From an archaeon (GTDB taxonomy: Archaea > Nanobdellota > Nanobdellia > SCGC-AAA011-G17 > GW2011-AR17): 64,000 nucleotides of DNA. Made by a program: the position numbers and the translations under genes. Position 1 is the first letter of the stretch. Every line of letters begins with the position of its first letter. The stretch is taken from the NCBI GenBank assembly GCA_018656555.1, contig JABHZQ010000023.1:2875-66874 (forward strand). Reading direction: 5' to 3'. Positions 17,006 through 33,238 of this stretch are shown here, piece by piece. The notes beneath the pieces were generated by a model. It searched no databases. It was not told the origin of the DNA and saw only the letters and a program-made list of their open reading frames with translations.

Positions 17006-17413
17006 CTAAGCTGTCCTCTTAGAAAACCTTGCAACACGATCTGCCAAATGTTCTTTAAATCTTCCCCTTATTATGCCTTCTTCTTCATCAGTAACAGGTA
17101 TAAATCTCTCTTCAGAAATTCCGTGCTCTCCACACTCCTCAAAATAAGAATCAGCAACAAAATCAGGAACTTTAAAGTAAACCCTAACTATCTCTCTCTT
17201 TCCTGTATGAATATGAACAGCTCTAGATAATTCCACACCAAAATCTAAAGGATCTGGTTTTCCAGTAGCTGTAATCTCAAAATCACTTTTTCCTTTCAGC
17301 CTATCAGGACCAATCCCTACATACACTACTCCCCCATTATCTCTATAGTTTCCAGGTTCACAAAATAAATGTTCACGCTTAACAACATAAATATCTACCA
17401 TAATTAGAAACAA
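17006..17413 (-). CDS. Hypothetical protein (135 aa)
   Basis: ORF with protein-like composition. No motif recognised. Confidence 0.35.
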   Translation of the reverse strand: MFLIMVDIYVVKREHLFCEPGNYRDNGGVVYVGIGPDRLKGKSDFEITATGKPDPLDFGVELSRAVHIHTGKREIVRVYFKVPDFVADSYFEECGEHGISEERFIPVTDEEEGIIRGRFKEHLADRVARFSKRTA

Positions 17414-17458
17414 AAAATTCTAACTTATAAATTTTTATATTCTAGAATAAAATCCGCC

Positions 17459-17480
17459 GAGGCTGGGCGAAAACCTTTGA
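17459..17480. repeat. att-like direct repeat: copy of the 3' end of the tRNA at 26044-26065 (cgccgaggctggg, exact 13-mer; about 20 nt similar)
   Basis: 17459 cgccgaggctgggcgaaaacc versus 26044 cgccgaggctgggattcgaaccc. Confidence 0.6.
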
Positions 17481-17568
17481 TTCATAGGCCCTGATTCCAG
17501 AGTCTTATGTAATACTTAAGCTTATATATTATGACATGTCGTCGGGGTTTATATGTTTTTCGCTGCCT

Positions 17569-19047
17569 TTATACTAACATTAGGAATAGAGATATAGGAA
17601 TTTTGACATAATTCCTATGTAGACCTAACTCATTCTTACTTATTAATACTCCTCCTTTGAAAGAACCAAATCCAACAAAATCAGATCCCCTAATTTGTGA
17701 TTGATATTTTACTTCAAAAGGATAAACCTTATCATCAAAAAGGATCACAAAGTCAATTTCTTTTTTCTTTTTTGTTTCAAAGTAACAAACATGATCTTTT
17801 GGATCAAATAGATCCTTGGGATTTAAACTAAAAACCAGCCTACATAAATGATTGTATACAACACTTTCAACTAATTTACTTTTTACTTCTAAATCTAATA
17901 AATTAGCTTTTGCATTAGTAAAATAATCCTTTTTCCCATTGGACCACCCATGTAGAGCATGAAATATAAAAGGATCTTGGATGTAAAGTTTTTTTGAAAA
18001 AGGACGAATTTTTTTATCAACTGAACATCTATAAACTTTATTTAGTGTATATAGATCTTCAAGTGCTTCAATATAATCATGTGCAGTATTATGAGAACTT
18101 ATGATTGTATTTTGAGTAAAACTTTTCCAACTAATGGGGGTAGATAGTGTTTTAAATACTTCCCTAATAAGTTGTTTAAAATATTCTTCTTTATATTTAT
18201 ATTTCCTCAATGAACCAATAACTGCCGTAATATAAACATTAAATAAATTTGTACTAATTTCTTTTTTTGTTTGATATTCATTTATTACTGAAGGTAAGCC
18301 TCCTGTTAAAAGATAAATCTCAAAAAGAGAATCTAATTCTTTTTTATAGATCATTAGCTTTTCTATGTCCTTATCAATTTTACCCTCGAAAAGATCCAAT
18401 ATCTTTTTTTGTCTATCTTTAATTTTAACAATACCCAAATCAAATTTTATCTTCTTAAAATCTGGCCATAAAAGTTCTACAAATTCTGAGAATTTCATAG
18501 GTAACAAAATTTTATCTAAAGGATCATTATCTTTTCCTCCTCTTCTACCTGGCATCAGTTCAGTTGAGTGCTTCAAATCCATAGCATGAGATCCTGTTAC
18601 AATAATAGAACAATTCTCAAAATCCCCTTTATTTGCAAAGTATATTAATTCTTTAGACCAATTTTTAACAGAACAAATTTCATCTAGAAAGATATATTTT
18701 CGATCTTTTTTTGTTTTTGATCTCCAACTTAAATATGTTTGAATTATCTGATTCATTTCATCTGAGTTTCTTTCTAAACTCCAAAAGAAAATATTTTCTG
18801 GATCTACTTTTTTATTTAATAAAAGATCTTTGATAATTAATTTAATTAACGTTGTTTTTCCTACTTGTCTTGGACCTCTAACTGTATAGATCACATCTTG
18901 GTCTAAATGAATAAAGTGTTTTATACTTGGATTCCATTTGAACTTTAATTGATTTAACTTTTTGAGCTTATGATCTTCAAGGATCTTATTTTTATCAGCC
19001 CACCAAGGATTTTGTTCAGATAATTGACTAATATCAAATGTAACCAT
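17569..19047 (-). CDS. AAA+ superfamily ATPase, COG1373 / DUF4143 type
   Basis: RGPRQVGKTTL Walker A signature of this family, with Walker B hhhhDE (IFLDEI). Confidence 0.7.
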   Translation of the reverse strand: MVTFDISQLSEQNPWWADKNKILEDHKLKKLNQLKFKWNPSIKHFIHLDQDVIYTVRGPRQVGKTTLIKLIIKDLLLNKKVDPENIFFWSLERNSDEMNQIIQTYLSWRSKTKKDRKYIFLDEICSVKNWSKELIYFANKGDFENCSIIVTGSHAMDLKHSTELMPGRRGGKDNDPLDKILLPMKFSEFVELLWPDFKKIKFDLGIVKIKDRQKKILDLFEGKIDKDIEKLMIYKKELDSLFEIYLLTGGLPSVINEYQTKKEISTNLFNVYITAVIGSLRKYKYKEEYFKQLIREVFKTLSTPISWKSFTQNTIISSHNTAHDYIEALEDLYTLNKVYRCSVDKKIRPFSKKLYIQDPFIFHALHGWSNGKKDYFTNAKANLLDLEVKSKLVESVVYNHLCRLVFSLNPKDLFDPKDHVCYFETKKKKEIDFVILFDDKVYPFEVKYQSQIRGSDFVGFGSFKGGVLISKNELGLHRNYVKIPISLFLMLV

Positions 19048-19082
19048 TATTTCTATAATTCTCTTTAAGTATTTAAGCTTTT

Positions 19083-19202
19083 TGACAGCTTATTTATAAA
19101 TGACGCCCACACAAAATGACAAGTAGTTTATAAAGAGAGCTATGGTTTATTGACAGCTTATTTATAAAGGAAGACAAAAATACTGACAACTTGTTTATAA
19201 AC
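19083..19202. repeat. Three iteron-like direct repeats TGACA(G/A)CTT(A/G)TTTATAAA at 19083, 19151 and 19184
   Basis: Read directly. Two copies are exact 18-mers and the third has 2 mismatches. Confidence 0.6.
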
Positions 19203-19405
19203 AGCCTGTACTTTGCATTTACAATAGATAAATCATCCATTCTAAGTACAAAATGGAACTAATCTAATGTTCATTAATATTAACAACTTGTTAATTTAAT
19301 GGAACAACTATTATGTACTAGATGTTAAAGAATCCTTAATTTTTAATACATAATAAACTAAATGTTCATCTCAGATGAATATTGCCTTTAGAATAACATG
19401 AAAAT

Positions 19406-19858
19406 TTGTATTTTGCAAATAATGGTGTTAACATCCAAGTCTTATTTCTTAAGATATGGCTGTTAAATCCTCTTTTGGAAGTTTCAGCAATATTTTTAAA
19501 GGAGCCTATAAAACCTCTTTTTATGTTAAACAATATTATATTTGAACATAGACCTACATTTAGTACAAAACAAAGAATAAGATTAGCTAAGGTCTTGGCT
19601 GAATGTCCTATAGAAATAACTTCTGTGGGTGGAGGACTTCCAGATATTCTATTAAGGGAAGGTCCAAATAGAGACAGTGCCAGAGGGAGAAGAGCATTTC
19701 AAAATTATGAATTATATCCTTTAGGGTTACAAGAATGTGAGGTTAGTATAGTAGAACCAAATGAATTTGGTGATGATATAGAGTTATCACAAAATGTTAT
19801 TGGTTTTTATTTTGCTCTAGAAAGACGTCCTAGACTTTATCATTTTTATGTAAAGTGA
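19406..19858 (+). CDS. Hypothetical protein
   Basis: ORF only. Confidence 0.3.
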   Translation: MYFANNGVNIQVLFLKIWLLNPLLEVSAIFLKEPIKPLFMLNNIIFEHRPTFSTKQRIRLAKVLAECPIEITSVGGGLPDILLREGPNRDSARGRRAFQNYELYPLGLQECEVSIVEPNEFGDDIELSQNVIGFYFALERRPRLYHFYVK

Positions 19859-19902
19859 AAATTGAGCGAACTCCCCCTACAGTAATCTATAATTTTCTTC
19901 TA

Positions 19903-20169
19903 CTACTTGAATCTACCAAATCTAAATAACATTGGTGGGGCTTTCCCTTCTTTTTTGAGTTTTTGGATAAATCGTTCTATTTGTTCATATCTATAAAATA
20001 AAAGCATTTCATAGAAGAACTTACTCTTCCTGTCGCATAAATCCGTAAACTCGTCTAGAAGTTCTTTCTTGAAACGAATAACATTCCAAGCCCTGTCTGA
20101 TTCACTGTAGTAAATCTTTCCTGCAATAGTCTTGTTTTCATTAACAGACTGTATGTATTGAGGCATCAT
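19903..20169 (-). CDS. Hypothetical small protein (88 aa)
   Basis: ORF only. Confidence 0.3.
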   Translation of the reverse strand: MMPQYIQSVNENKTIAGKIYYSESDRAWNVIRFKKELLDEFTDLCDRKSKFFYEMLLFYRYEQIERFIQKLKKEGKAPPMLFRFGRFK

Positions 20170-20589
20170 GATTTTTACACCTCTCTTTTATATGTTTTAA
20201 TTTAGTATGTTATAACATCTATTTATATTGGTGCCTTGTACTTTTGGTACTTGCCTTATAGTGCCTTTTAGTCTTTGTATTTGGTTAATTTGGCTATATC
20301 TAAGGGGTAGGAGGGTTGTATTGGTGTTTTGAGTGTTTTTGTTTAAGTTGTCAGTACTACTATTTAGTGGGAAAGTTTATATATGAGTTGTTTAGGGTTT
20401 TTATATAGCTTTGACGGTAAAAATGGCAAAAAAATGGCATTATACAAATAAAGGAACTGGTGCAATCTCATTATATGGAGATGGAATTACAGATTTTTGG
20501 GAGATGCTAGCAGATGATAATGAAATGAGAGAATTTCAAAATTTTTTAGGAATGTTTCAAGATCCATTTAGAGTTAGAGCTGAATTTTT

Positions 20590-21831
20590 TCAGAAACTTG
20601 AAGAGATGGTTAGAGGAAAAGATGTTGTTGAAATAGGTCCTGGACAAAATCCTCTTAGATCTTTATTTGAATTTGATCCTAGATCGTATACTTGTGTTGA
20701 AGTTACTGGAACTCCAGCTGATGATTTACCTAGAGTTGTTCGATATGAAGAGGATGATGGGCTTTCATATTTACAAGGAATAAATAGTCCAGTTTCAGTA
20801 GTTTCTATTTCTAGGTCTTGATCTATAAAGTTGAATGTTTGTGGTAATTGGAAGGTATTAAAGTGGTTGTATAATGTTAGGATTGGATTGTTTATACTGC
20901 TTACAATAAATCCTAATTCCTCTTCAACTATGATGTTGTTGATGAATTCGCTATCTTCTTCATTTGCTCTAATTGTTAAGATATAGTAAGGTTGGTATGT
21001 AAAGTTGAAATCATAGTAGTAATTTCTTAGGTTATATTCTGAGTTTTGAAATTCTAAATCTAAAGCTGTGTAGTTTTCTGCTAGGATGTATCCATGGTAA
21101 GAATTATATAATTCATCTAAAAGGATTATTTCTCCTAAAGGTTTTTCATTGTAGTAATATAAATCTAGTTCATCTTCTAGAGTTATTACACTAGTTTGAG
21201 AATTTGAATGTGAATATTGGCAAGATGTTGGGCAGTATTCTCCAATGTTACAATGTCCTTGGTGCCCTTGATAGTGTTTTACTCTTACTTCTACTGTTAT
21301 TGTTAGTTCTGTTGTGAATAATGAATCTTGGTTTATTGTGTATTCTTGTAAGAGATCGTTTCCTATTAGGTTGTTATTTTGGTAAATGTTTAAATGTTCT
21401 GTTTGTTCAGAAATGGAGTAGGTTGTTCTACAATCATTACCCTGTATTCCCGAAGGTAGTTCGATATCATAGTTGTAAGCTGTTAATATTTCTCCTTGTT
21501 CTTGAGAGTAGAGATTATTGTCTATTAATATAGAAGGCATTGCTGTGATTATTTTCATCCATGCATTTTTTACATGCATTGAACTGATTGTTTGAATATC
21601 TTCTGGTGGATCTGTAAATTCTATGTTTGTGTTGTAATTGTATGTAAATTCATAATCTGGAAATTCTGTTGAAATGATTGCATTATATAATTCTTCTTTT
21701 TCTTCTGGTGTTAATTCTAGATCATTTTGTATTACTAAACATGATTCTTGTTCTGGAATTGATTCACAAGGGAAAGCTGTCGCTAGAGGGAGTACTAGTA
21801 GTAGAAATAGAGTTAATACTAGTTTTTTCAT
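20590..21831 (-). CDS. Secreted hypothetical protein with an N-terminal signal peptide (MKKLVLTLFLLLVLPLATA)
   Basis: Signal peptide plus a Cys-containing extracellular-type composition. Its C-terminal ~75 codons overlap the opposite-strand ORF 20411..20821, so the true 3' end is uncertain. Confidence 0.45.
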   Translation of the reverse strand: MKKLVLTLFLLLVLPLATAFPCESIPEQESCLVIQNDLELTPEEKEELYNAIISTEFPDYEFTYNYNTNIEFTDPPEDIQTISSMHVKNAWMKIITAMPSILIDNNLYSQEQGEILTAYNYDIELPSGIQGNDCRTTYSISEQTEHLNIYQNNNLIGNDLLQEYTINQDSLFTTELTITVEVRVKHYQGHQGHCNIGEYCPTSCQYSHSNSQTSVITLEDELDLYYYNEKPLGEIILLDELYNSYHGYILAENYTALDLEFQNSEYNLRNYYYDFNFTYQPYYILTIRANEEDSEFINNIIVEEELGFIVSSINNPILTLYNHFNTFQLPQTFNFIDQDLEIETTETGLFIPCKYESPSSSSYRTTLGKSSAGVPVTSTQVYDLGSNSNKDLRGFCPGPISTTSFPLTISSSF

Positions 21832-21875
21832 TGTTTTTACCTCCAGAAAGCTTTTTAAGAATAAACAAATTCTCT

Positions 21876-22487
21876 ATGTTTATGAGACTAATTTTTATTA
21901 GACATGGTGAAACACAAATTAATGTAGAAGGAAAAATGCATATCAAGGGCAGTTCCTCAGAGTTAACCAAAATAGGAATTAATCAAATACTAAGTACAAT
22001 TGCATTTTTAAATAAAAATAACGTGGAAAAAGTTTATTCCTCGCCTACAAAAAGAACTTACCAATCTGCAAAATTAATCTCAGAAAAACTAAATATTTCA
22101 CTTGATGTTCTTGATGATCTAAAAGAAAGAGATTGGGGTAATTGGGAGACTAAAACTTGGAATGAAATAAGTATAGTGTTGGATAAAATGAGTTTAAATG
22201 AAAGATATGAATTTATTCCACCTCATGGTGAATCTTGGAAACAGATGGAAGAGAGATTAAAAGTTACTCTAAAAAAAGTGACAGATGGTTCTGAGAAATG
22301 TGTTTGTATTGTTACACATATGGGGGCTTTAAGGGGCTTAATTCCAATCTTGAAAAATCAGGATAAATCAGTTAGCTTGAATTTTAGTTTTGATAATGGT
22401 TCTATAACTATTTTTGATTTCAAAGATAACAAGTACAGAGAAATTATAATAAATGACACTTCTCACTTAAATAATAGTAAACACTAG
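21876..22487 (+). CDS. Histidine phosphatase superfamily protein (phosphoglycerate-mutase-like)
   Basis: LIFIRHGETQ catalytic RHG motif right after the Met at 21876. The longer ORF from 21678 overlaps the divergent upstream gene and is unlikely. Confidence 0.65.
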   Translation: MFMRLIFIRHGETQINVEGKMHIKGSSSELTKIGINQILSTIAFLNKNNVEKVYSSPTKRTYQSAKLISEKLNISLDVLDDLKERDWGNWETKTWNEISIVLDKMSLNERYEFIPPHGESWKQMEERLKVTLKKVTDGSEKCVCIVTHMGALRGLIPILKNQDKSVSLNFSFDNGSITIFDFKDNKYREIIINDTSHLNNSKH

Positions 22488-22570
22488 TCATCGGAGACAT
22501 TACCTCAAAACTACCTCATAAGTATAGTTTTTGCCTTATACTCACTCACATATTAAAAAAAGAAAAAAAA

Positions 22571-22906
22571 TTATTGAACTAGGAAGTTTACGATCAATGG
22601 TGCTATCCAGATTAGAATTAAACCAGCAACTACATACATAATCATACTTTTTGCTTGTTCTCTTTTACCTGGATCCGAGCCTGAAGTCATAAAGGTGATT
22701 CCTGCTACAACTAATACAACTGCGGCAATTGCGGTTGCAATGTATTTAATAAAGTTGTAAATACTCATCACTGGCTCAAGGATTTCATCGAAAGCTGCTT
22801 CATCAGCTGCATCTAATGGTTGATTAAGATCAATAGCTGCACTAACTAGAGGTGTCAGGCTTATTAACAACACAAATGCCAATAGCAACAGGTTCTTTAC
22901 CTTCAT
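22571..22906 (-). CDS. Small secreted two-helix membrane protein resembling TrbC/VirB2-type pilins
   Basis: Signal peptide (…LVSA|AIDL), then two hydrophobic helices separated by a short polar loop (…VVAGITFMTSGSDPGKREQAKSMIMYVVAGLILIW…). A GGAGG-like SD sequence lies upstream. Confidence 0.35.
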   Translation of the reverse strand: MKVKNLLLLAFVLLISLTPLVSAAIDLNQPLDAADEAAFDEILEPVMSIYNFIKYIATAIAAVVLVVAGITFMTSGSDPGKREQAKSMIMYVVAGLILIWIAPLIVNFLVQ

Positions 22907-23204
22907 TTTCTTCCTCCTGTACCTCTTTCCTTAGTTTTTTCATGAGTTTTCTCAACATTTTTTCCTCCTAAATTGTTTGTAATTGGTTTAATTGAATTTG
23001 CTTATAATATTTCAGAGAAAAAAGTTCGAAGTTTTTTAGTAAAAGTTTTAGAAGATTTTTATCTGAGTATTTATATACTGTTTTTGCAAAACTATTTTTT
23101 ATGAATTGGCAAAAACAACAAAGGATTATTGAAATTCGTCAAAACATGCGTAAACAAATTGAAGTTATTTTAAATAATGCTGAAAATCAGATAAAGGAGT
23201 TAGA

Positions 23205-23375
23205 ATGCAACGATTTCAATCTTTAAGGTATATGCAAAAAACTAGAACGGTTTGTGTTCGTATTTCCCAAGCTGAAGAAATCATGTTAAAGGCTGAAGCT
23301 AAAAGAATTGGTAAACCTGTTACTTCTTTGATTAGAGATGGTTATTTGGGTAAGGTTGAGAGGATGTTGGTTTAA
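23205..23375 (+). CDS. Ribbon-helix-helix (CopG/MobC-like) DNA-binding mini-protein, 56 aa; not in the ORF track because it is under 60 aa
   Basis: MQRFQSLRYMQKTRTVCVRISQAEEIMLKAEAKRIGKPVTSLIRDGYLGKVERMLV, a beta-strand-helix-helix pattern. An AGGAG SD sequence sits 5 nt upstream. Confidence 0.5.
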   Translation: MQRFQSLRYMQKTRTVCVRISQAEEIMLKAEAKRIGKPVTSLIRDGYLGKVERMLV

Positions 23376-24112
23376 AGTTTAGACTGTTTCCATAACTCAT
23401 CAAAAAATTGAGTATATGATTTTCCAAGTTCTTCAGATTCAATAACTACAATAAAGGGTTCTTCTTTCCAACTCATTAAAGCAATTAAATTATTAGAGAC
23501 AACTGTACCAATTGGAATCTTTTGGTCTGTAAATTTTATTTTAACTAACTTATAACTAGTTGATTTTATAAATTTCTTAATTCTTTCATTAGCAATAACT
23601 CTAACTTCAATTCCTAGCTCTTTTCTAATTAGATCCTGTTTTTGAATAAATTTCTTAACTTCTTCTCTTTCCCAATCATCTTCAAAAGAAAAAACCTTGA
23701 AAATTTTATCTTCTTTTAGAAGTCTATGATTAAATTCCTCATAAAATGTCTTTATTCCTCCTATTCCAGTTAAAACTCTTGCATTAGGTGTTTTGCTTAA
23801 TTCTAATATACTTAATTTCTTGATTTCTTTCTTTACTTCTTCTTTTTGTTCATCTATTTCAATTTTCTTCTCTTCCAAATAAGTCAGTAATCTTTCAGGA
23901 TTGTTAGCTATAAAATACTGAGTTTTGTCTTTTGTAACTTTGGAAATTAGTCCTTTTTCTAAGAGTTTCTCTAATATTGGATATGTTTTTGATGGAGTAA
24001 CTTTGGACTTTTTACTAATAGGACCAATAGTGGCTTCTTTTAGGATAATGAGACTTCTATATACTTTAATTTCTCCTTCTGTAAATCCCAACTTTCTTAA
24101 TGTGTTAATCAT
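23372..24112 (-). CDS. TrmB-family transcriptional regulator (N-terminal wHTH)
   Basis: LGFTEGEIKVYRSLIILKEATIGPISKKSKV…LEKLLEKGLISKV matches the TrmB wHTH consensus. Confidence 0.6.
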   Translation of the reverse strand: MINTLRKLGFTEGEIKVYRSLIILKEATIGPISKKSKVTPSKTYPILEKLLEKGLISKVTKDKTQYFIANNPERLLTYLEEKKIEIDEQKEEVKKEIKKLSILELSKTPNARVLTGIGGIKTFYEEFNHRLLKEDKIFKVFSFEDDWEREEVKKFIQKQDLIRKELGIEVRVIANERIKKFIKSTSYKLVKIKFTDQKIPIGTVVSNNLIALMSWKEEPFIVVIESEELGKSYTQFFDELWKQSKL

Positions 24113-24147
24113 ATCCTCTTAGGGAGGAAACAACCCTTATATATCTT

Positions 24148-24645
24148 TTGTTTTTCTGTTTTTTTATGAAAAATACAAAGTTAAATCTAATAAAGATAGG
24201 ATGTCTTTCAGCTGTCATAACTGGAGTTGCTGGAGGTCTTGGTTTAATTGGCAACTCATTAGTAGAAGAGTGGGTAGAAAGAAAAAGCAATCCCATCGAT
24301 CCTTCTAGAATTGTTGGAAATTATAATCCCCAAGTTGTTGTACATCCTATAACTGGTGATGAATATAGAATTGTAGATGATGAACTTTATGGATGTTATG
24401 GAGATGTTATCAAATCTGTTCAGTATAATTGTATATTGCATGGTGGAAGGCAAGGACATACTATTACTTGTCTTTATGATGGAGCCAGCCAGGTTGAGGT
24501 TAATTTTTATAACTCTCAAGTATCTAGAGTATTTCCTCAGTTAACTCTTTCAGGATATATTGATGATACAGAATTAGAGAGTTATGTTGATACTTTTGAA
24601 AGAGATTTGGCTCTTTTGGTTGAAGCAGATTTGGCTACTTATTAA
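24148..24645 (+). CDS. Hypothetical membrane-anchored/secreted protein
   Basis: N-terminal TM helix; no motif recognised. Confidence 0.35.
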   Translation: MFFCFFMKNTKLNLIKIGCLSAVITGVAGGLGLIGNSLVEEWVERKSNPIDPSRIVGNYNPQVVVHPITGDEYRIVDDELYGCYGDVIKSVQYNCILHGGRQGHTITCLYDGASQVEVNFYNSQVSRVFPQLTLSGYIDDTELESYVDTFERDLALLVEADLATY

Positions 24646-24660
24646 TAAAAAAAAGAAAAA

Positions 24661-25917
24661 TTAAACCTTAACTTTCATCATATCATTCAACCTCTTCTCC
24701 ATGACATGCAATCTATCAAGCAACTGATCATTCTGTAACAAATCATGCTTCTCTGCAATCTCCTTGATCTTCTCTCTTTTCATTGGTCTCTTACAATTTG
24801 AACAAAACTCCATTGTAAACCCATTTTTTGAACCACAAAAAGTACAAACCTTAAACTGAGGTTGAAATCTCTTCTCCCTAGCACTCTGAGGATCAACTAA
24901 CCCCCTTTTAACCAACTCAATACGCAAAGCATCTTCTTGGGTACTCATATCATATACTTTAAGTTGCTTAGTAGAAGTCCATCTAGCTGCATGTTGTATC
25001 TGTGTATCACTATCTCCTCTTAACCTTCTATAAGTGATTCCATTTCTCTTAAGAGAATAACAAGTAATTGACTTATTAATCCCTAATGCATTACATGCAA
25101 CTTTCAATCTTTTATTCACATTGTTGTTCGTCATCTGCTTTAAATTCCCATGATTGCTTTCATTAACAAAGAAATAAGCATCTGGATTATGTTTCAAAGG
25201 GTGTTTCTCAAACCATTTCATAATATAAGGATATGAATCAATACTTTGTAAGAAACCAGTTCCTTCTTTTCCATGCTCAGAGATCCAAATCTTTGCATAA
25301 TTGTCATAAAACTCATAATCCTTAACCTTAGTAAACAATATCTCTTGTGGTCTTCCTAAAGATTCAAAAGCTAAAGTTAAATAAGCTTGAATCTTGGGGT
25401 CTTTGTTAAAGTATGCAACTATTTTCTCAAACTCTTCTAAGTTAAACCTTTCATTCCTTAACTTCTCTTTACTTTTGTCAATTCTAGAACTAATATGCCT
25501 TACTGCATAAGGAGTTAATGTTTCATCAATTCTATCTCTAGAATCTTTTTCAGGAAACAACATTCTCCAAATAACTTTCATATCCTTAATAAAATCCTTT
25601 TTACTTTCAACAGATTTGTACCTTTTATGCATAAAAGCAACAATTCCATTAATATCATCTCTATCACATTCTGCTAGATCTTTATCTGTTGCAGTACAAA
25701 GTACTCTCAAATTAAAAAAAATCTTATTTCTTCTAATATAGCTCAGGTCTTTTGCCTCAAATCCATTAATCAATTTCTTGAAATACTTCAAGTTCTTTTT
25801 ATTTTTACAGTAATACTTTCTTTTACCACCTTTCTTTGGTTTACATGTTTGTTTTTCCATGTCAGCAATGAAATTTTCATATTTTCTCCTGCTTCCATAG
25901 ATATCATCTTCAGTCAT
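24661..25917 (-). CDS. Integrase / tyrosine-recombinase-like protein with a C-terminal zinc ribbon
   Basis: Position next to the tRNA; candidate catalytic region …SLKRNGITYRRLRG…HAARWTS…KVYDMS (R…HxxR…Y); CTFCGS…CSNCKRP zinc ribbon. Confidence 0.5.
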   Translation of the reverse strand: MTEDDIYGSRRKYENFIADMEKQTCKPKKGGKRKYYCKNKKNLKYFKKLINGFEAKDLSYIRRNKIFFNLRVLCTATDKDLAECDRDDINGIVAFMHKRYKSVESKKDFIKDMKVIWRMLFPEKDSRDRIDETLTPYAVRHISSRIDKSKEKLRNERFNLEEFEKIVAYFNKDPKIQAYLTLAFESLGRPQEILFTKVKDYEFYDNYAKIWISEHGKEGTGFLQSIDSYPYIMKWFEKHPLKHNPDAYFFVNESNHGNLKQMTNNNVNKRLKVACNALGINKSITCYSLKRNGITYRRLRGDSDTQIQHAARWTSTKQLKVYDMSTQEDALRIELVKRGLVDPQSAREKRFQPQFKVCTFCGSKNGFTMEFCSNCKRPMKREKIKEIAEKHDLLQNDQLLDRLHVMEKRLNDMMKVKV

Positions 25918-26043
25918 TTTACACCTCCTAGTATTACAAAACTCTATATAAAAGTGAGTATATCATGGGCGTGTGAATCAAAAGCACATGCCCCTGAAAA
26001 ATCACTTAGGGCCTAGGATTCGGGACTGTGAATAGAAGGATTA

Positions 26044-26141
26044 CGCCGAGGCTGGGATTCGAACCCAGATATCCAGAAGGAAACAGGCTTTCTAGGATAT
26101 ACTCTCAAGGCCTGCGCGGTACCAGATTGCGCCACCTCGGC
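26044..26141 (-). tRNA. tRNA, ~98 nt, class II-like or intron-containing; anticodon probably UGA (Ser), assignment uncertain
   Basis: 5'-GCCGAGG acceptor stem; T arm CTGGGTTCGAATCCCAG; acceptor 3' strand CCTCGGC plus discriminator G. An anticodon stem CAGGC/GCCTG encloses 21 nt, i.e. a loop of CTTGAGA plus a ~14-nt insert. Confidence 0.75.
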
Positions 26142-26178
26142 ATTAGTTATTAGAAAAAAGGGGCATTTAAAAACTTTA

Positions 26179-26337
26179 TTATTTTTTAAACCGAGGAATA
26201 TTATCTTCTAATGGATACTCCTTGCCACATCTCCAGCAAGCTAGATTCTCTTTTGCTGAATCATACTTCAAACTATTCTGACAAGAAGGACATCTTAACA
26301 TATTTAGTAACTGTTCTGAAATCTCCATACTATTCAT
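26179..26337 (-). CDS. Trm112-like small zinc-finger protein (methyltransferase activator family), 52 aa; not in the ORF track
   Basis: MNSMEISEQLLNMLRCPSCQNSLKYDSAKENLACWRCGKEYPLEDNIPRFKK matches the Trm112/DUF343 pattern (CPxC…C…C…YPIxDGIP). Confidence 0.5.
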   Translation of the reverse strand: MNSMEISEQLLNMLRCPSCQNSLKYDSAKENLACWRCGKEYPLEDNIPRFKK

Positions 26338-26362
26338 ATACCTCAATTTTATTTAAACTTTA

Positions 26363-27055
26363 TTATTTCTTAATCTGACTCCAAGGAATAGGTCTATCAA
26401 TAAGATGCTTACATTTAATTGTTGTATCACAAAATGCCTCAATCTTCTTAGCATGACAATCTACAAAGAAAAATCTATCATCAAAGTGTTTATTCTCTGA
26501 TCTAAACTCTATCTCCTTCAAAATATCTCTATGGATTAACAAACAACCTAAACCAGCAGAAACAACAGGATACAAACCAGGATCATTCCACAACTCTTCC
26601 TCCTCTAAAGGATACATAGTTAAAGACTCAGGATCTTTTAACTTATACACCAAAGGAATTAACTTTATTGTACCATCCTCAAATCTATTATTAGCAAAGT
26701 AAACCCCTGTAATTAACTTCTTTCCATGTTGCAACATCCTTTCTATCAAATCAGCAGGAGGAATCACATCTTGTTCTAAAGATAAGAAATACTCATAATC
26801 TCCCTCTAACACCTCTTTCCTTAACAAATTCCTAGAAGCAATTATCCTATCTACAGCCCCTTCAAACCAAGGCCCTTTTACAACAGAAATATCAAAAGTT
26901 TTTATTAAATTAAAATATTCATCATTTTTTGAATTCTCAACTATTAGAATTTTTTTATTAGGATAAGTCAACTTTTTTAGACCAGCCATATACTCAGTTA
27001 GACAATAATCTTTATGATGTGATGTTGGACATCCCACTAATATTTTTGGTCTCAT
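26363..27055 (-). CDS. Tandem paralog 3 of 3: divergent GT-A-like (GT2-like) putative glycosyltransferase
   Basis: Shared motifs KILVGCPTS…LTYPN…ILIVENS…SRNLLRKEVLE…YEYFLSLEQDVIPP…GCLLIH…CKHLI. The start is probably the Met at 27055 (MRPKILVGCPT). Confidence 0.45.
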   Translation of the reverse strand: MRPKILVGCPTSHHKDYCLTEYMAGLKKLTYPNKKILIVENSKNDEYFNLIKTFDISVVKGPWFEGAVDRIIASRNLLRKEVLEGDYEYFLSLEQDVIPPADLIERMLQHGKKLITGVYFANNRFEDGTIKLIPLVYKLKDPESLTMYPLEEEELWNDPGLYPVVSAGLGCLLIHRDILKEIEFRSENKHFDDRFFFVDCHAKKIEAFCDTTIKCKHLIDRPIPWSQIKK

Positions 27056-27765
27056 TTTTTTATCCCTTCCCATCCTCCCCCTTTTATCAAGTGTTTGCAT
27101 TTTAAGGAAGTATCTGCAAATATTTTATTACCTTCATTAAATGTGTCCTGACAGAACCACATATCGTCGAAGCCATTATCGTTTTTATCATATCTAAACT
27201 TGATGTTTTTAAGTATTTCCTTATGTATTAATAGACAACCTAAACCACAAGCACCCACCTCCATTAAAGAACCACCTTCAATCTCTTCAAAAGAAAGTGC
27301 CTTTACCCTATCTTCCCTAACCCTTTTCCATAAAAGAGGTCTTAATTGATTCTTTCCATTAATCATTTGAAAATTATAATACACTCCAGTAACCAATTTC
27401 TTACCTGATTTTAACATTCTTTCAATAATATCTTTTGGAGGTATTACATCCTGTTCTAAAGACAAGAAATAATCATATTTTTCTAACACTTCTTTCCTTA
27501 AAATATTCCTTGAATTAATAATTCTCTCTCTTGCACTATCTGAATACACATCCTTCACTGCTGGAAGACCGGACTCTTTTATCAAACCAATATAATCATT
27601 ATTTTCACTATTATCGACGATAAGAATATCATAATTAGGATAAGTCAACTCTTTTAATCTGCTCGCATACCTACCTAAACAATACCTTTTATGTACCGAG
27701 GTTGGACAACCCACTAATACTTTTGGATTTCCTTCCAACTTTTGTTCTTGATCAGATGTTTGCAT
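27052..27765 (-). CDS. Tandem paralog 2 of 3: divergent GT-A-like putative glycosyltransferase
   Basis: Same motif set (KVLVGCPTS…ILIVDNS…LEQDVIPP…CKHLI). Confidence 0.45.
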   Translation of the reverse strand: MQTSDQEQKLEGNPKVLVGCPTSVHKRYCLGRYASRLKELTYPNYDILIVDNSENNDYIGLIKESGLPAVKDVYSDSARERIINSRNILRKEVLEKYDYFLSLEQDVIPPKDIIERMLKSGKKLVTGVYYNFQMINGKNQLRPLLWKRVREDRVKALSFEEIEGGSLMEVGACGLGCLLIHKEILKNIKFRYDKNDNGFDDMWFCQDTFNEGNKIFADTSLKCKHLIKGGGWEGIKK

Positions 27766-28379
27766 TTTATTGAAGTATCCACATATAAGGAAATACCTCT
27801 TTCTTTTAAATCATTTGAAAAAAACATATCATCAAAGCACTTTTTATCTTCTTCATATCTAAATTCTATTTCTTTTAACACATCTTTATGAATCAAAAGA
27901 CAACTTAAACTTACAGTTCTCACTTTTTCCAACCTTGGAGGATCAAGCTCTTCAGGATTTAAGAACCTCAACTTATCTCTACTTTCTTTCCAAACCATCG
28001 GAAGCAATTTCCTTTTATAACTATTAAACACAACAGCAGATACAACCTTTTTCTCATGGGCTAACATTCTTTCAATCACATCTTTAGGTGGGATTACATC
28101 CTGTTCTAAAGATAAGAAATAATCATATTTCTCTAACACCTCTTTCCTTAAGATATTCCTAGAATTAACAATTCTCTTAATTGCCGGTTCCAAATACCCC
28201 GCTCTAACTACATTAATATTTATTTTCTTATAATATTCTTCATCTTTAGAATTATCAACAAGCAAAATATCAAAATTTGGGTAAGTTAATTCCTTAATTC
28301 CTTGTAAATACTCTTGTAAACAGTACCCATAAATATCACAAGTTGGACAACCAACTAAAACTTTAGGCTTTTGAGACAT
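27714..28379 (-). CDS. Tandem paralog 1 of 3: divergent GT-A-like putative glycosyltransferase
   Basis: Same motif set. The start is probably the Met at 28379 (MSQKPKVLVGCPT). Confidence 0.45.
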   Translation of the reverse strand: MSQKPKVLVGCPTCDIYGYCLQEYLQGIKELTYPNFDILLVDNSKDEEYYKKININVVRAGYLEPAIKRIVNSRNILRKEVLEKYDYFLSLEQDVIPPKDVIERMLAHEKKVVSAVVFNSYKRKLLPMVWKESRDKLRFLNPEELDPPRLEKVRTVSLSCLLIHKDVLKEIEFRYEEDKKCFDDMFFSNDLKERGISLYVDTSIKCKHLIKNKSWKEIQKY

Positions 28380-28944
28380 AGACACGATATCCACCCTTCT
28401 TTGCTATTGTTTTTAAATTTCCAAATACACTTTCCATATATTCACTTAATGATCCTCCTCCTTTATTATGCCGCGCCACCACCTGTAGTGTTCCATCTTT
28501 CAATAAAAAATCCTTAGAATCTTTTATCATAGCATAACATATCTTTTTCCCTGCAGCCTGAGGTGGATTAAATAAAATAACATCAAACTTTTCCTTTATC
28601 TTTTCAAAAGCATTTCCATGTAAAACTTTTATTGTTCTAATCTTCCTTGTATTCATCTTAGCTAATTTCACAGCTCTTTTATTAACATCAGTAAGAATTA
28701 CTTTATTCTTTGTTTTAGTCGCTGCAACCCTTCCAACTATACCAATACCACAACCCAAATCCAATACCTTATCATCTTCATTTATTTCCATATAATTTAC
28801 TAAAACCTTAGTACCATAATCTACTTTTTTCTTTGAAAAAACACCCGAAGAAGTAAAAAAAGTATATTCTTTTTTAGCTAGAATAACCGTTATAGTTTTT
28901 AGTTTAAGTTCTGATTCTTGATTTTCTGAAAAATAGTGTTTCAT
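28363..28944 (-). CDS. SAM-dependent methyltransferase (methyltransferase small domain, RsmC/METTL-like)
   Basis: LDLGCGIGIVG motif I; VILFNPPQ motif IV. Confidence 0.6.
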   Translation of the reverse strand: MKHYFSENQESELKLKTITVILAKKEYTFFTSSGVFSKKKVDYGTKVLVNYMEINEDDKVLDLGCGIGIVGRVAATKTKNKVILTDVNKRAVKLAKMNTRKIRTIKVLHGNAFEKIKEKFDVILFNPPQAAGKKICYAMIKDSKDFLLKDGTLQVVARHNKGGGSLSEYMESVFGNLKTIAKKGGYRVYVSKA

Positions 28945-29543
28945 TCCATAATCCCTAATAGGTGATATGCTAATCTATCTGCTGCCCTTATTAGTTCATC
29001 CTCATCAGTACCTTCTACAATTATACAAAATCCATCAGCATAAACTTGAGTTGTTTCACCAAGAGTCACAAAGATAACTGTATTAGCATCATTTGCATGC
29101 CCACACTGCACAACAGTCTTGTTCTCATATTCTTCAGATACTGTAGTATAAGTAGGTAGATTATAGATTAATTCATTATCTAATATGTTCATTAATTCAT
29201 ACACAGCCACCACAGTTTTTCCTTTCAAATCTTGATAAGGATCTATTGTTATGTAAACTGCTTCATCATTTGCTATTCTTTGAGCTAAATTACCACTTAA
29301 AGGAATATCTTCAACAGATGCAGGATCTGTTCTCATAGTTAAAATGTACTCTTGTTCATCTCCTTCAAAATAAACAGGTATTTTTGTTTCAGATTCACTT
29401 AATATTGTCACATCAAACACAGTATTACCATTAGAATATGAATAATAATCACTTGTTGGAGAATAGGCATATATGCCAACTCCAGCTATCCCTAAGATAA
29501 TAACTAATCCAAGGATGATATAGGTCATTTGTGTTTTAGCCAT
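28941..29543 (-). CDS. Membrane-anchored extracellular hypothetical protein
   Basis: N-terminal signal anchor (TYIILGLVIILGIAGVGIYAY). Confidence 0.4.
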   Translation of the reverse strand: MAKTQMTYIILGLVIILGIAGVGIYAYSPTSDYYSYSNGNTVFDVTILSESETKIPVYFEGDEQEYILTMRTDPASVEDIPLSGNLAQRIANDEAVYITIDPYQDLKGKTVVAVYELMNILDNELIYNLPTYTTVSEEYENKTVVQCGHANDANTVIFVTLGETTQVYADGFCIIVEGTDEDELIRAADRLAYHLLGIME

Positions 29544-30114
29544 ATTGATCTAGAATTAATTTATCTGTAACTTTTAATAAATCTTTCCCTTGTATAGTAA
29601 GACAATTGTCATCTAAAGATAATATTGTTTCATTATCTTCTTTAAATATAATCACACCAATTGATTCTGTAGCATCTTCACAGGTTTTAATGGGTAATGT
29701 TGAACACAGTTCATTATCCTCATAACAAGCTTCTGTTGTCCAAGTACTTAATTCTATATTATTATAGAAGTCATATACTGCATTTCTATAATTATCTTCA
29801 GGATTTAGAGATATATACATCTTAGATAGACTAGTTAATGAGCCTAGGCTAATCTCTTCTATTTCTAGTTCCTTTAGTTCCTCAGGATTTGATAGTACTA
29901 CTACCTGTTCTCCCTCTTCTGTATAAGCTAAAAACCCAGATTCTGTAGCAACAAAGGTTAAACCATTATATTCTACCTGTTCTGGTTCATCAGAATTTAA
30001 ATTAACCACACTTAAAACCATCAGCATTATGATAAAAATACCCACCAAATAAGTATAAAGCTCCTTTCTTTTGAATATTGATTTTCTCTTACCAAAATAA
30101 GTTCTTCTTTTCAT
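29536..30114 (-). CDS. Membrane-anchored extracellular hypothetical protein
   Basis: N-terminal basic stretch plus a TM helix; Cys-containing ectodomain. Confidence 0.4.
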   Translation of the reverse strand: MKRRTYFGKRKSIFKRKELYTYLVGIFIIMLMVLSVVNLNSDEPEQVEYNGLTFVATESGFLAYTEEGEQVVVLSNPEELKELEIEEISLGSLTSLSKMYISLNPEDNYRNAVYDFYNNIELSTWTTEACYEDNELCSTLPIKTCEDATESIGVIIFKEDNETILSLDDNCLTIQGKDLLKVTDKLILDQYG

Positions 30115-30189
30115 TGTTATATAGAATTATTTTTGTTATTAAAAAAGTTTTTGTTTTTTAAAATAATAAAAAAAGAAAAAAAGTGAGGT

Positions 30190-32505: not shown

Positions 32506-32812
32506 TTACACAACACCTCCCTGTGTGTAATAATATTACTGTTCGGATTTTTCATCACTTTTTATACCAAAGTCACTATAGATTAATAATCCTGATTTAT
32601 AGTACTCTAACACCCGGGAGGCCTTTATAAACTTTTGTGTCATTTACTAGAGAAAAAGAGGCTAATTCCTGCGAATTCAGCGACGATAAAGCTTAATTTT
32701 GATGTTTGATGTTTTGGAGGTAAACAATAAGTGTTACCACTCTAAAATAATTTGACTAGTTGTACCTTATACTCCTGAAATATTATAGAATTAGGTACAT
32801 TTATGTTACTAT

Positions 32813-33238
32813 CTAAGGGTTGCAATACCATAATTTTACCTTCTTTCCAGAGATTGTAGCATCGTCTGGTATTATGTCTCCAATACACTCTTCTGTGTAA
32901 AGAGTATTGTCAATATAAAACATATAAACTCCTTCTTCCCAACCATAAGTATTTGTTATCAAAGCCATCTGTTCTTGCATCAACTCACAAGCATCTTGAC
33001 CACACTCAAAACCACCACTCATACAAGTCTTAATTACATCATCCATTTGAGTACTTTCACATACTGTTTGTAGACGGATAACGTCGAGCATGTTGGATAC
33101 TTCTAAATGCATTTCAGTCTCTTGTATTGAACTTGTACCTGAATCATCAGGCATAAATTTGATATAAAAAATTATTCCCATTATGATTAATAAGATAATA
33201 ACCATAAATCCAAGTATTTCCATTTGACCTTTTTTCAT
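32813..33238 (-). CDS. Pilin-like protein with an archaeal class III (prepilin-type) signal peptide
   Basis: MKKGQ|MEILGFMVIILLIIMGIIFYI, a KGQ motif followed by a hydrophobic helix. Confidence 0.5.
   Translation of the reverse strand: MKKGQMEILGFMVIILLIIMGIIFYIKFMPDDSGTSSIQETEMHLEVSNMLDVIRLQTVCESTQMDDVIKTCMSGGFECGQDACELMQEQMALITNTYGWEEGVYMFYIDNTLYTEECIGDIIPDDATISGKKVKLWYCNP

What the first reader, a model, noticed from the sequence alone, without database searches (positions are those of the whole stretch)
17456..26141. An ~8.7 kb integrated element inserted at the tRNA 3' end, with att-like direct repeats
The exact 13-mer cgccgaggctggg, part of ~20 nt of similarity, occurs at the tRNA 3' end (26044-26065) and again at 17459-17480. 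That is the classic signature of integrase-mediated insertion into a tRNA gene.

Between the repeats lie the following genes. There is a tyrosine-recombinase-like integrase next to the tRNA and a COG1373 AAA+ ATPase. There are an iteron-like repeat block and a TrmB regulator. There are an RHH mini-protein, a histidine phosphatase and a secreted Cys-containing protein. Finally there is a VirB2/TrbC-like two-helix pilin.

This is a compact integrated plasmid or provirus-like element. Its cargo of pilin plus secreted protein could contribute to surface or host interaction.
Basis: partly seen in the sequence, partly recalled or inferred. Interest (0 to 1): 0.65.

Follow-up and report, generated by a model that had tools for sequence, protein, structure and literature searches.

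The report
Mobile element inserted in tRNA-Ser gene
An 8.6 kb piece of mobile DNA sits at the end of a serine tRNA gene in a tiny marine archaeon (Woesearchaeota), and other cells of the same population lack it; it is a cut-down member of a widespread element family whose fuller members carry a small DNA or protein transfer machine.

Summary
An intron-containing tRNA-Ser(UGA) lies at 26044-26141 (-). Its last 13 nt recur exactly once more, at 17455-17467, not at 17459-17480. Similarity beyond the 13 nt is not significant.

One ENA contig joins the same tRNA directly to the 17.4 kb flank through a single 13-mer, which is an empty site. The same element, differing by 1 SNP, also abuts a different gene, tRNA-Ser(GGA). 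A sister genome carries a diverged relative (integrase 72% identical) at the same tRNA.

The 418-aa tyrosine integrase stays intact beside the tRNA. Its catalytic set is R189, K217, Y287-S-L-K290-R291, W313 and Y322, followed by a C-terminal zinc ribbon. It belongs to a large family found mainly in DPANN archaea. At least 40 of 80 related loci have a tRNA just upstream of the integrase.

The pilin and the "secreted protein" are the remains of a type IV secretion (T4SS) module: VirB2 pilin, surface protein, VirB6-like protein, VirB3/VirB4. Relatives keep this module whole. Here a deletion at about 20801 removed the rest.

No replication, capsid or transfer ATPase gene is present. I read it as a recently mobile, non-self-transmissible integrated element, which is a known kind in a poorly charted host group.

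The parts
26044..26141 (-). tRNA-Ser(UGA) gene with a 14-nt anticodon-loop intron and a long variable arm. This is the integration target (attB side).
   Evidence: Rfam RF00005, 46.9 bits. ARAGORN -i calls tRNA-Ser(tga); the spliced form folds as an 84-nt tRNA-Ser.
26044..26056 (.). tRNA-proximal att core. It equals the last 13 nt of the tRNA (CCCAGCCTCGGCG on the minus strand).
   Evidence: Exact repeat. The junction in the empty-site contig L014 falls within it.
17455..17467 (.). Distal att core, the second copy of the 13-mer, marking the far end of the element. Element length counted with one core is 8589 bp.
24661..25917 (-). Tyrosine integrase, 418 aa, intact. It starts 126 nt from the tRNA 3' end. 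Catalytic residues are R189, K217, Y287/K290/R291, W313 and Y322. The C-terminal zinc ribbon uses C358/C361/C372/C375.
   Evidence: PF00589, E 2.6e-8. PHROG 1 integrase. Alignment A1 gives the invariant residues. Profile alignment to XerA 5hxy.
25967..25993 (.). Imperfect inverted repeat GGGCGTGTG-9 nt-CACATGCCC between the att core and the integrase start. Candidate operator or integrase-binding site (inferred).
   Evidence: Read from the sequence. Similar GCAT..ATGC-type motifs lie upstream of the integrase in related loci.
26007..26021 (+). TAGGGCCTAGGATTC. One of two direct copies of TAGGSCCT..GATTC, each 18-23 nt inside an att core. Candidate arm-type binding site (inferred).
   Evidence: These are the only two TAGGSCCT matches in 17300-26300.
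17485..17497 (+). TAGGCCCTGATTC, the second copy of the arm motif.
24166..24645 (+). 159-aa protein with an N-terminal hydrophobic segment; function unknown.
   Evidence: Called as a gene in all contigs. No hits in Pfam, PHROG, NCBIfam or PADLOC.
23372..24112 (-). TrmB-family winged-helix regulator, 246 aa.
   Evidence: PF01978, E 8.5e-14. Homologues of 28-35% identity lie near the integrase in L036, L052, L063 and L096.
23205..23375 (+). 56-aa ribbon-helix-helix protein with a weak NikA-like match. A backbone gene of the family.
   Evidence: PF21983, E 3e-4, below the cutoff. Homologues sit next to the integrase or pilin in L022, L025, L031-L033, L092 and L101.
23101..23226 (+). 41-aa ORF called upstream of the RHH gene.
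   Evidence: A weak homologue occurs in L059.
22571..22906 (-). VirB2/TrbC-type T4SS pilin, 111 aa: signal peptide plus two hydrophobic helices.
   Evidence: PF18895, E 3.2e-16, and PF04956, E 7.8e-9. The mature part is 100% identical to the pilin of the complete module in L101.
21876..22487 (+). Histidine phosphatase (His_Phos_1), 201-203 aa, inserted between the pilin and the next module gene.
   Evidence: PF00300, E 1.3e-38. It holds the same position in L101/L102 and is absent in the JGI 3300072015 contig.
20590..21831 (-). Gene for a pilin-adjacent surface protein (413-aa ORF), truncated at its 3' end. Full-length homologues are 435-454 aa, with beta-sandwich domains and a C-terminal membrane anchor that is missing here.
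   Evidence: Alignment A2. P0122 and P0123 cover only 82-85% of the query. DNA homology to L101 stops at 20801. Structure model and fold search.
20423..20821 (+). 132-aa ORF that matches the N-terminal two-thirds of a 200-217-aa protein family of unknown function. It is truncated at the same breakpoint and converges on the previous gene.
   Evidence: phmmer against 1.84 billion representatives: hits of 176-224 aa matched over their first ~100-130 residues. No Pfam family.
20801..20821 (.). Deletion breakpoint. Relatives have the VirB6-like and VirB3/VirB4 genes, and more, between the two truncated genes.
19903..20169 (-). 88-aa protein, a backbone gene of the family; function unknown.
   Evidence: Homologues of 31-41% identity in L025, L042, L043 and L092. 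An 88-aa gene lies downstream of the T4SS module in the JGI contig.
19523..19858 (+). 111-aa ORF (150 aa from an upstream TTG); no homologues found.
19083..19201 (+). Four 18-nt direct repeats (TGACARNTNRTTTATAAA) spaced 33-34 nt apart, just upstream of the ATPase gene. Iteron-like; either an origin or an operator array (inferred).
17569..19047 (-). AAA_14 ATPase fused to a DUF4143 (PD-(D/E)xK-like) domain, 492 aa. Matches the PADLOC defence candidate PDC-S01.
   Evidence: PF13173, E 5.9e-25; PF13635, E 5.6e-15; weak NERD match. PDC-S01, E 1.8e-32.

Best explanation
This is an 8.6 kb site-specific integrative element of a Woesearchaeota (DPANN) archaeon from low-oxygen sea water.

Integration. 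Its tyrosine integrase recombines a 13-bp core on the circular element with the identical last 13 bp of tRNA-Ser genes. The element carries the same 13 bp, so the tRNA stays intact. The displaced copy marks the far end of the element. The integrase gene is not split by integration, so the layout follows the lambda / archaeal 'type II' pattern.

Mobility. The element has moved recently in this population: occupied and empty sites coexist, and a copy differing by one SNP lies next to a second tRNA-Ser gene.

Origin. It descends from a larger element that encoded a minimal type IV secretion or conjugation apparatus: VirB2 pilin, an anchored surface protein, a VirB6-like membrane protein and a VirB3-VirB4 ATPase. 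A deletion at about 20801 removed everything after the second gene.

Consequence. The element can probably still integrate and excise, but it cannot build the apparatus itself. If it transfers between cells, it would depend on related, complete elements that co-occur with it.

Other genes. These are two small regulators (TrmB, RHH), a histidine phosphatase and an ATPase-nuclease of a candidate defence family.

Shown: the repeat, the empty site, the second tRNA context, the integrase family and its tRNA association, and the truncation.

Inferred: excision activity, mobilisation in trans, and the roles of the iterons, the arm motifs and the cargo genes.
For: Repeat and target:
- The 13-mer is exact, unique and at the extreme tRNA 3' end.

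Insertion polymorphism:
- Empty-site contig L014 reads tRNA, one 13-mer, then the flank, at 100% identity on both sides.
- Many independent assemblies break at exactly 26069/26044/26019 and 17530/17467, as expected for graph branch points at both att sites.

Other contexts:
- L007 and L004 carry the same element (1 SNP in 8.6 kb) next to tRNA-Ser(GGA), with different upstream genes.
- Sister genome L077 has a 100% identical tRNA, 95% and 90% identical neighbouring genes and a 72% identical integrase. Similarity to the window ends 4 nt after the tRNA.

Integrase family:
- 546 homologues.
- The catalytic residues and the zinc ribbon are invariant.
- In 40 of 80 genome loci a same-strand tRNA ends 62-140 nt (a few up to ~270 nt) upstream of the integrase.
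- Seven loci show an 11-14-nt repeat of the tRNA 3' end 4.8-10 kb downstream.

T4SS module:
- It is complete in L049, L067, L026, L076, L101/L102 and the JGI contig.
- The window shares 89% DNA identity with L101 only as far as 20801.
- Both genes at the breakpoint are truncated.
- No VirB4 homologue lies in the 64 kb window.
Against: - No circular (attP) junction was found in IMG/VR or JGI contigs, so excision is not shown directly. The empty site could be an ancestral, never-occupied allele.
- Only one empty-site contig could be retrieved, and its junction lies 42 nt from the contig end. The exact attB string is absent from the JGI contig collection.
- The far junction of the tRNA-Ser(GGA) copy was not seen. 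L004 ends in the same flank as the window, which may be an assembly path through two near-identical copies.
- The active site is non-canonical: Tyr replaces His-II, and Lys sits at the aligned Arg-II position.
- No replication initiator was recognised.
- GC content does not differ from the flanks.
Confidence: 0.82

Rival explanations
1. A fixed genomic island or decayed remnant. The integrase-bearing segment entered long ago and no longer moves. The empty-site contig simply represents a sister lineage that never received it.
For: No attP junction was found. The T4SS module is truncated. GC content equals that of the host.
Against: The flanks of the empty and occupied contigs are 100% identical over 7 kb, so the two forms are the same strain-level population. 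A copy with 1 SNP sits beside a different tRNA-Ser gene, which needs a recent integration event. The integrase ORF is intact and identical in 22 contigs.
Confidence: 0.1
2. An integrated provirus, or a virus satellite, that leaves the cell in a particle.
For: tRNA-integrating archaeal viruses with short cores exist; SNJ2 has a 14-bp core in tRNA-Met (PMC5861418). The best match to the integrase in the phage collection is the integrase of an archaeal pleomorphic virus, at 22.5% identity. Several ORFs have no known function.
Against: PHROGs gives no capsid, portal, terminase or spike-like hit; only the integrase and families of unknown function match. The recognisable structural genes belong to a T4SS, not a virion. 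The element and its attP are absent from IMG/VR.
Confidence: 0.04
3. The segment is not an insertion. It is a strain-variable region produced by homologous recombination or rearrangement between the two near-identical tRNA-Ser genes, and the 13-mer is a leftover tRNA fragment.
For: The two tRNA-Ser genes share about 44 identical 3' nucleotides. The element is seen joined to either of them.
Against: The distal copy is only the last 13 nt, and the adjacent sequence is not significantly tRNA-like. The join in the empty site is precise to the base. The same layout (tRNA, about 60-140 nt, then an integrase of this family, with an 11-14-nt terminal repeat kilobases away) recurs at many different tRNAs in unrelated genomes.
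Confidence: 0.04

Closest known systems
Archaeal 'type II' integrative elements (lambda paradigm; pNOB8-type integrases of Sulfolobus conjugative plasmids)
   Same: - The integrase gene stays intact after integration, and the att site lies just upstream of it.
- The target is a tRNA gene.
- Tyr takes the place of His-II, as in the R..YxxR..Y tetrad reported for pNOB8-type enzymes (PMC5861418, PMC8371274).
- The element family is associated with a conjugation-type apparatus.
   Different: - No detectable sequence relationship to the pNOB8 integrase: hhalign probability 0.3%, and no tblastn hit in PLSDB.
- Lys sits at the aligned Arg-II position, with Arg one residue later.
- There is a C-terminal four-Cys zinc ribbon.
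- The hosts are mesophilic DPANN archaea, not Sulfolobales.
SNJ2-type integrating elements of haloarchaea
   Same: A short core (14 bp there, 13 bp here) identical to the 3'-distal end of a tRNA gene. The distance between the integrase gene and att is conserved within subgroups (PMC5861418).
   Different: - SNJ2-type enzymes keep the canonical R..HxxR..Y tetrad and need two accessory proteins.
- Their att lies downstream of the integrase gene.
- They belong to pleolipoviruses, whereas no virion genes are present here.
Cryptic integrated elements and putative ICEs of Thaumarchaeota (Krupovic et al. 2019, PMC6563490)
   Same: A small element (under 20 kb) defined mainly by an integrase, with short direct repeats and no viral or replication signature; this is the 'cryptic integrated element' class. 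Fuller relatives with VirB4 correspond to the 'ICE' class.
   Different: - A different integrase family and a different host phylum.
- The thaumarchaeal ICEs carry VirB4 plus a VirD4 coupling ATPase and type IV pilus-like pilins.
- The relatives found here show a VirB2-type pilin and a VirB3-VirB4 fusion, and no coupling ATPase was seen in the loci I examined.
Ced/Ted DNA-import systems of Crenarchaeota and the Patescibacteria T4SS
   Same: Minimal T4SS sets built around a VirB2-like pilin, a VirB6-like membrane protein and a VirB4 ATPase, without a recognisable relaxase (PMC9905601, PMC12102498).
   Different: - Ced/Ted genes are chromosomal ('domesticated'), whereas in several relatives here the module lies directly downstream of a tRNA-adjacent integrase.
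- In the window itself only the pilin and a truncated partner remain.

Membership tests
Site-specific integrative element in a tRNA gene (tyrosine-recombinase type) | Direct repeats, one of which is the 3' end of the tRNA, bracket the element | tested here: met
   Exact 13-mer at 26044-26056 and 17455-17467. It is unique in 64 kb, and 0 of 100 shuffles gave a match.
Site-specific integrative element in a tRNA gene (tyrosine-recombinase type) | An unoccupied target site exists, in which the tRNA is followed directly by the distal flank | tested here: met
   L014: window 33100..26044 joined to 17467..17413 through one core copy, at 100% identity.
Site-specific integrative element in a tRNA gene (tyrosine-recombinase type) | A circular or excised form with an attP junction | tested here: inconclusive
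   The predicted attP 30-mer is absent from IMG/VR and JGI contigs. Raw reads could not be searched.
Tyrosine recombinase superfamily | Catalytic Arg-I, Lys, His-II, Arg-II, His/Trp-III and the Tyr nucleophile | tested here: inconclusive
   R189, K217, W313 and Y322 are present and invariant. His-II is Y287. The aligned Arg-II position is K290, with invariant R291 adjacent. The PF00589 score of 34.2 exceeds the cutoff of 27.1.
pNOB8-type integrase family | Intact integrase gene with att upstream, and an R..YxxR..Y tetrad | tested here: inconclusive
   The layout is met. Tyr at the His-II position is met. Arg is offset by one residue.
pNOB8-type integrase family | Sequence relationship to the pNOB8 integrase | tested here: not met
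   hhalign of A1 against the pNOB8 integrase (NC_006493 20720-22039): probability 0.3%.
SSV-type ('suicidal', type I) integrase | att lies inside the integrase ORF, so the gene is split on integration | tested here: not met
   The integrase is a single intact 418-aa ORF, 126 nt from the core.
XerA chromosome-dimer resolvase | Reaches the NCBIfam equivalog score; about 280 aa; housekeeping genomic context | tested here: not met
   NF040815 scores 33.8 bits against a cutoff of 220. The protein is 418 aa with extra N- and C-terminal domains, and it sits inside a segment that is present or absent between strains.
Integrative and conjugative element (ICE) | VirB4-family ATPase and the membrane components of a mating-pair apparatus | tested here: not met
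   No VirB4 or VirB6-like homologue in the window; only the pilin and a truncated partner remain. Relatives L049, L067, L026, L076 and L101 do have them.
Integrative and conjugative element (ICE) | Relaxase and coupling protein | tested here: not met
   No Pfam or NCBIfam hit among the element proteins. There is only a sub-threshold NikA-like RHH protein.
Provirus | Capsid, packaging or other virion genes | tested here: not met
   PHROGs matches only the integrase and families of unknown function.
PADLOC PDC-S01 candidate defence gene (the ATPase) | Profile match to the family; anti-virus activity | tested here: inconclusive
   The profile match has E 1.8e-32. Activity cannot be tested here, and the family itself is only a candidate.

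The most novel reading that the evidence does not exclude
The element is a reduced member of an undescribed family of tRNA-targeting integrative elements found across DPANN archaea.

The family is defined by a 410-450-aa tyrosine integrase with a Y-x-x-K-R active-site motif and a C-terminal zinc ribbon. Complete members carry a minimal T4SS: a VirB2-type pilin, an anchored beta-sandwich surface protein, a VirB6-like protein and a VirB3/VirB4 fusion.

These would be mobile-element-borne conjugative-type pili in archaea. They could serve either for element transfer or for contact between these small-genome, probably host-dependent archaea and other cells.

The same integrase family also occurs at 42-52% identity in megabase-scale bacterial contigs, which would mean it has crossed between domains.
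Probability: 0.45. Interest if true: 0.65.

Novelty: new member of a known kind. Interest (0 to 1): 0.45.

Why it matters
Mobile elements of DPANN archaea are barely charted. Here the element boundaries, the target, an empty site and a second target are all defined to the base. That gives a concrete system for testing integration in an uncultured lineage.

The comparison also shows that a VirB2-type pilin and its partner gene travel on integrase-bearing elements in Woesearchaeota. Complete VirB3/VirB4 modules occur in close relatives from the same waters. Published work states that archaeal conjugative plasmids lack a recognisable pilus protein and that the Ced/Ted systems are chromosomal (PMC9905601). 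Element-borne versions would therefore fill a gap.

For this particular window the result is more modest: a well-behaved but degraded integrative element.

Tried and rejected
- Default ARAGORN found no tRNA. Rfam and ARAGORN with introns were needed.
- The predicted attP junction was searched for in IMG/VR and JGI metagenome contigs, with no hits.
- The exact attB string was searched for in JGI contigs, with no hits. The empty site came instead from an ENA contig reached through a flanking protein.
- Extended att similarity beyond 13 nt is not significant.
- I guessed that the truncated ORF at 20423-20821 was the remnant of the methyltransferase that follows VirB4 in L101. BLASTP shows no similarity, and its homologues have no Pfam family, so I dropped that identification. 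The truncation itself stands.
- A profile comparison with the pNOB8 integrase gave no relationship.
- tblastn of the integrase against the phage and plasmid collections found only remote hits of 22-25% identity.
- Rfam did not recognise the two-intron tRNA-Ser(GGA) of L007. It is recognised only after the two introns I predicted are removed, so that anticodon assignment rests on my splice model.
- Sigma-70-type promoter and terminator scans were uninformative, as expected for an archaeon.

Full report
**1. The observation**

Rfam finds a single tRNA in the window, at 26044-26141 on the minus strand (46.9 bits). Default ARAGORN misses it because it carries a 14-nt intron. With introns allowed, ARAGORN calls it tRNA-Ser(UGA), and the spliced 84-nt form folds as a normal class II tRNA.

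The 13-mer CGCCGAGGCTGGG is the reverse complement of the last 13 nt of the tRNA: the 3' strand of the T stem, the acceptor stem and the discriminator base. It occurs at 26044-26056 and once more at 17455-17467, in the same orientation. No match appeared in any of 100 shuffles, even with one mismatch allowed. It is the only tRNA k-mer of 12 nt or more that recurs anywhere in the window.

The claimed ~20 nt of similarity does not hold beyond the exact core, since 7% of shuffles reach the observed flanking alignment score.

The gene list is correct. The 'iteron-like block' is real: four 18-nt repeats at 19083-19201, spaced 33-34 nt apart.

**2. It is an insertion, and a recent one**

I looked up the exact integrase protein and the flanking proteins in public assemblies. 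This returned more than 20 contigs, mostly from Saanich Inlet and similar samples. Several span the whole region and are 100% identical to the window (L001, L002).

One contig, L014, is the end of a 226,771-nt ENA contig. It matches window 33100..26044 and then continues into 17467..17413, with a single copy of the 13-mer at the join. So an intact tRNA-Ser(UGA) is followed directly by the 17.4 kb flank.

The last 55 nt of that contig begin exactly at the core. That is what a de Bruijn graph branch node at k = 55 would give. A 13-nt repeat is too short to cause a false join at that k. Both points are inference.

Many other contigs stop at 26069, 26044, 26019 or 17530. This fits assembly graphs that branch at both att sites.

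Two further contigs, L007 and L004, place the same integrase and element next to a different tRNA gene with different upstream genes. They differ from the window by one SNP at 23105 across 8.6 kb. After removal of two predicted introns, that tRNA is tRNA-Ser(GGA). It has a compensatory G-C to A-U change in the D stem and a 1-nt shorter variable arm. The two tRNAs share their 3' ends, so both offer the same core.

A sister genome, L077 (recorded as Candidatus Woesearchaeota), has neighbouring genes 95% and 90% identical and a tRNA-Ser(UGA) 100% identical including the intron. Its integrase is only 72% identical. Its similarity to the window ends 4 nt after the tRNA. So the same site holds a diverged relative of the element.

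**3. The integrase and its family**

The 418-aa protein passes the Pfam Phage_integrase threshold and hits PHROG 1. It is far below the XerA equivalog cutoff.

It has 546 homologues at E <= 1e-5, mostly from Nanoarchaeota/Woesearchaeota MAGs. They are 410-450 aa long and conserved along the whole length.

A profile alignment to the XerA structure 5hxy places the residues as follows:
- R189 at Arg-I
- K217 in the beta-hairpin
- Y287 at His-II
- K290 at Arg-II, with invariant R291 next to it
- W313 at His/Trp-III
- Y322 as the nucleophile

Four invariant cysteines (358, 361, 372, 375) form a C-terminal zinc ribbon.

Tyr at the His-II position is the hallmark reported for pNOB8-type integrases (PMC5861418). 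However, a profile comparison with the pNOB8 integrase itself shows no relationship. I therefore say it works like a type II archaeal integrase, not that it is a member of the pNOB8 family.

In 80 related genome loci, ARAGORN with introns finds a same-strand tRNA of many different specificities ending shortly upstream of the integrase in 40 cases. The gap is 62-140 nt in most and up to about 270 nt in a few. Several more loci show tRNA-like 3' ends that the program missed.

In seven loci, an 11-14-nt repeat that ends within 2 nt of the tRNA 3' end lies 4.8-10 kb downstream. The architecture of the window is therefore the rule for this family.

**4. What the cargo really is**

The pilin (PF18895/PF04956) and the 413-aa protein recur together downstream of family integrases in L022, L026, L049 and L067.

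In those loci, and in L076, L036, L041 and L042, the pair is followed by two more genes:
- a ~300-aa membrane protein with a pilin-like segment, which I call VirB6-like as an inference
- a 950-1040-aa ATPase with PrgI (VirB3), CagE/TrbE/VirB and TraG P-loop domains, which is a VirB3-VirB4 fusion

The closest relatives of the window's module are L101/L102 and a JGI contig from a sample that also contains the window's element. Their gene order is RHH, pilin, (His phosphatase), 437-aa protein, 274-aa protein, 947-aa VirB3/VirB4.

At the DNA level, window 23106..20801 is 89% identical to L101, and the similarity stops at 20801.

Full-length homologues of the 413-aa protein are 435-454 aa and end in a membrane anchor. 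The window's ORF loses homology after about residue 350 and has an unrelated tail.

The convergent ORF at 20423-20821 matches only the first two-thirds of a 200-217-aa family. Both genes are thus cut at one point. I read this as a deletion that removed the rest of the T4SS module.

No VirB4 homologue lies anywhere in the 64 kb window.

A model of the full-length homologue (pLDDT 76) shows N-terminal helices, beta-sandwich domains and a C-terminal helix. The fold search gives only generic Ig-like hits. This is compatible with a surface or pilus-associated protein but not diagnostic.

**5. The other genes**

- The ATPase has AAA_14 and DUF4143 domains and a weak NERD match, which suggests a PD-(D/E)xK-type nuclease domain. 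It matches the PADLOC candidate defence family PDC-S01 at E 1.8e-32.
- The TrmB-family regulator, the RHH protein and the 88-aa protein recur in related loci. They are probably backbone genes.
- The His phosphatase is optional, since the JGI contig lacks it.
- No replication initiator, capsid, terminase, relaxase or coupling protein was found.

Three sequence features are candidate origin, operator or arm sites:
- the iteron block just upstream of the ATPase gene
- an imperfect inverted repeat at 25967-25993
- the paired TAGGSCCT..GATTC motifs, each 18-23 nt inside a core

All three assignments are inferred.

**6. Mechanism**

Shown:
- a 13-bp core shared by the tRNA 3' end and the distal end of the element
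- an intact integrase next to it
- a precise empty site
- a second tRNA-Ser context
- the same layout across the family

Inferred:
- The integrase recombines attP with attB within the 13 bp and regenerates the tRNA.
- Excision reverses this, possibly with help from the RHH protein.
- Having lost VirB6-like and VirB3/VirB4, the element cannot assemble the apparatus. If it transfers horizontally, it would rely on complete relatives present in the same community.

I did not find an attP junction, so current excision is unproven.

**7. Comparison and novelty**

The kind is known: a tRNA-integrating archaeal element with a type II tyrosine integrase and short direct repeats. It is comparable to SNJ2-type elements (14-bp core in tRNA-Met, PMC5861418) and to the cryptic integrated elements and ICEs of Thaumarchaeota (PMC6563490). 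By those authors' classes, the window's element is a cryptic integrated element derived from an ICE-like ancestor.

I found no description of this integrase family, or of tRNA-integrated T4SS elements in Woesearchaeota, in the searchable literature. That library is incomplete.

Beltran et al. state that archaeal conjugative plasmids lack recognisable pilus proteins and that Ced/Ted systems are chromosomal (PMC9905601). Patescibacteria have VirB2-like pilins with an MPF-FATA-related VirB4 (PMC12102498). The element-borne VirB2 plus VirB3/VirB4 modules seen in the relatives are therefore the more interesting lead. They lie outside the window.

**8. Verdict**

This is a new member of a known kind, with moderate interest and a useful family-level lead.

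Noticed in passing
L086 (OZ252100.1, Latescibacterota 5.66 Mb chromosome), L095, L048, L047, L079, L081, L083, L085: Integrases of the same family (42-52% aa identity, near full length) lie in large bacterial MAG contigs with 42-60% GC, and ARAGORN detects no tRNA upstream. In L086 the integrase is followed by a 731-aa HerA/FtsK-like ATPase and preceded by RadC. This suggests one integrase family spread across the two domains.
   Followed up: partly
window 30190-50919 and 54662-57319: The host DNA next to the tRNA is a cell-surface region. It holds an S-layer-like 771-aa protein, four consecutive 1139-1326-aa proteins with weak Ig-like (Big_13) matches, and an AglB/STT3 oligosaccharyltransferase.
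   Followed up: partly
window 26363-28394: Three tandem, partly overlapping paralogous glycosyltransferase-like genes (245, 237 and 226 aa; about 67% DNA identity to each other) lie directly upstream of Trm112 and the tRNA.
   Followed up: no
L007 905-1047: The tRNA-Ser(GGA) gene seems to carry two introns: 31 nt inside the 5' strand of the anticodon stem and 23 nt at the canonical position. A LAGLIDADG_3-domain ORF ends 20 nt upstream of it. Rfam does not recognise the unspliced gene.
   Followed up: partly
window 22574-22852 compared with L101 8977-9258: The mature pilin (residues 18-111) is 100% identical in protein sequence between the window and L101, while the neighbouring genes are only about 85% identical. 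This points to strong constraint on, or recent exchange of, the pilin gene.
   Followed up: no
L049 12167-14248; JGI 3300072015 14.5 kb contig: T4SS-bearing relatives carry defence-type genes next to the module: a GmrSD restriction endonuclease in L049 and an AbiEii toxin in the JGI contig. The VirB4 of L049 ends in a CoiA nuclease-like domain.
   Followed up: no
related loci L028-L032, L052, L054, L062, L090 (the 150 nt upstream of the integrase): A recurrent motif follows the tRNA-like 3' end: GCA(T), about 8-12 nt, CTTCTGGTTGAATGC, often forming a GCAT..ATGC inverted repeat. It may be the conserved integrase-binding part of attP. The window has a related inverted repeat at 25967-25993.
   Followed up: no
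window 14356-15420: A radical SAM/SPASM-domain gene lies 2 kb beyond the distal att site, followed by glycosyltransferase and aminotransferase genes.
   Followed up: no
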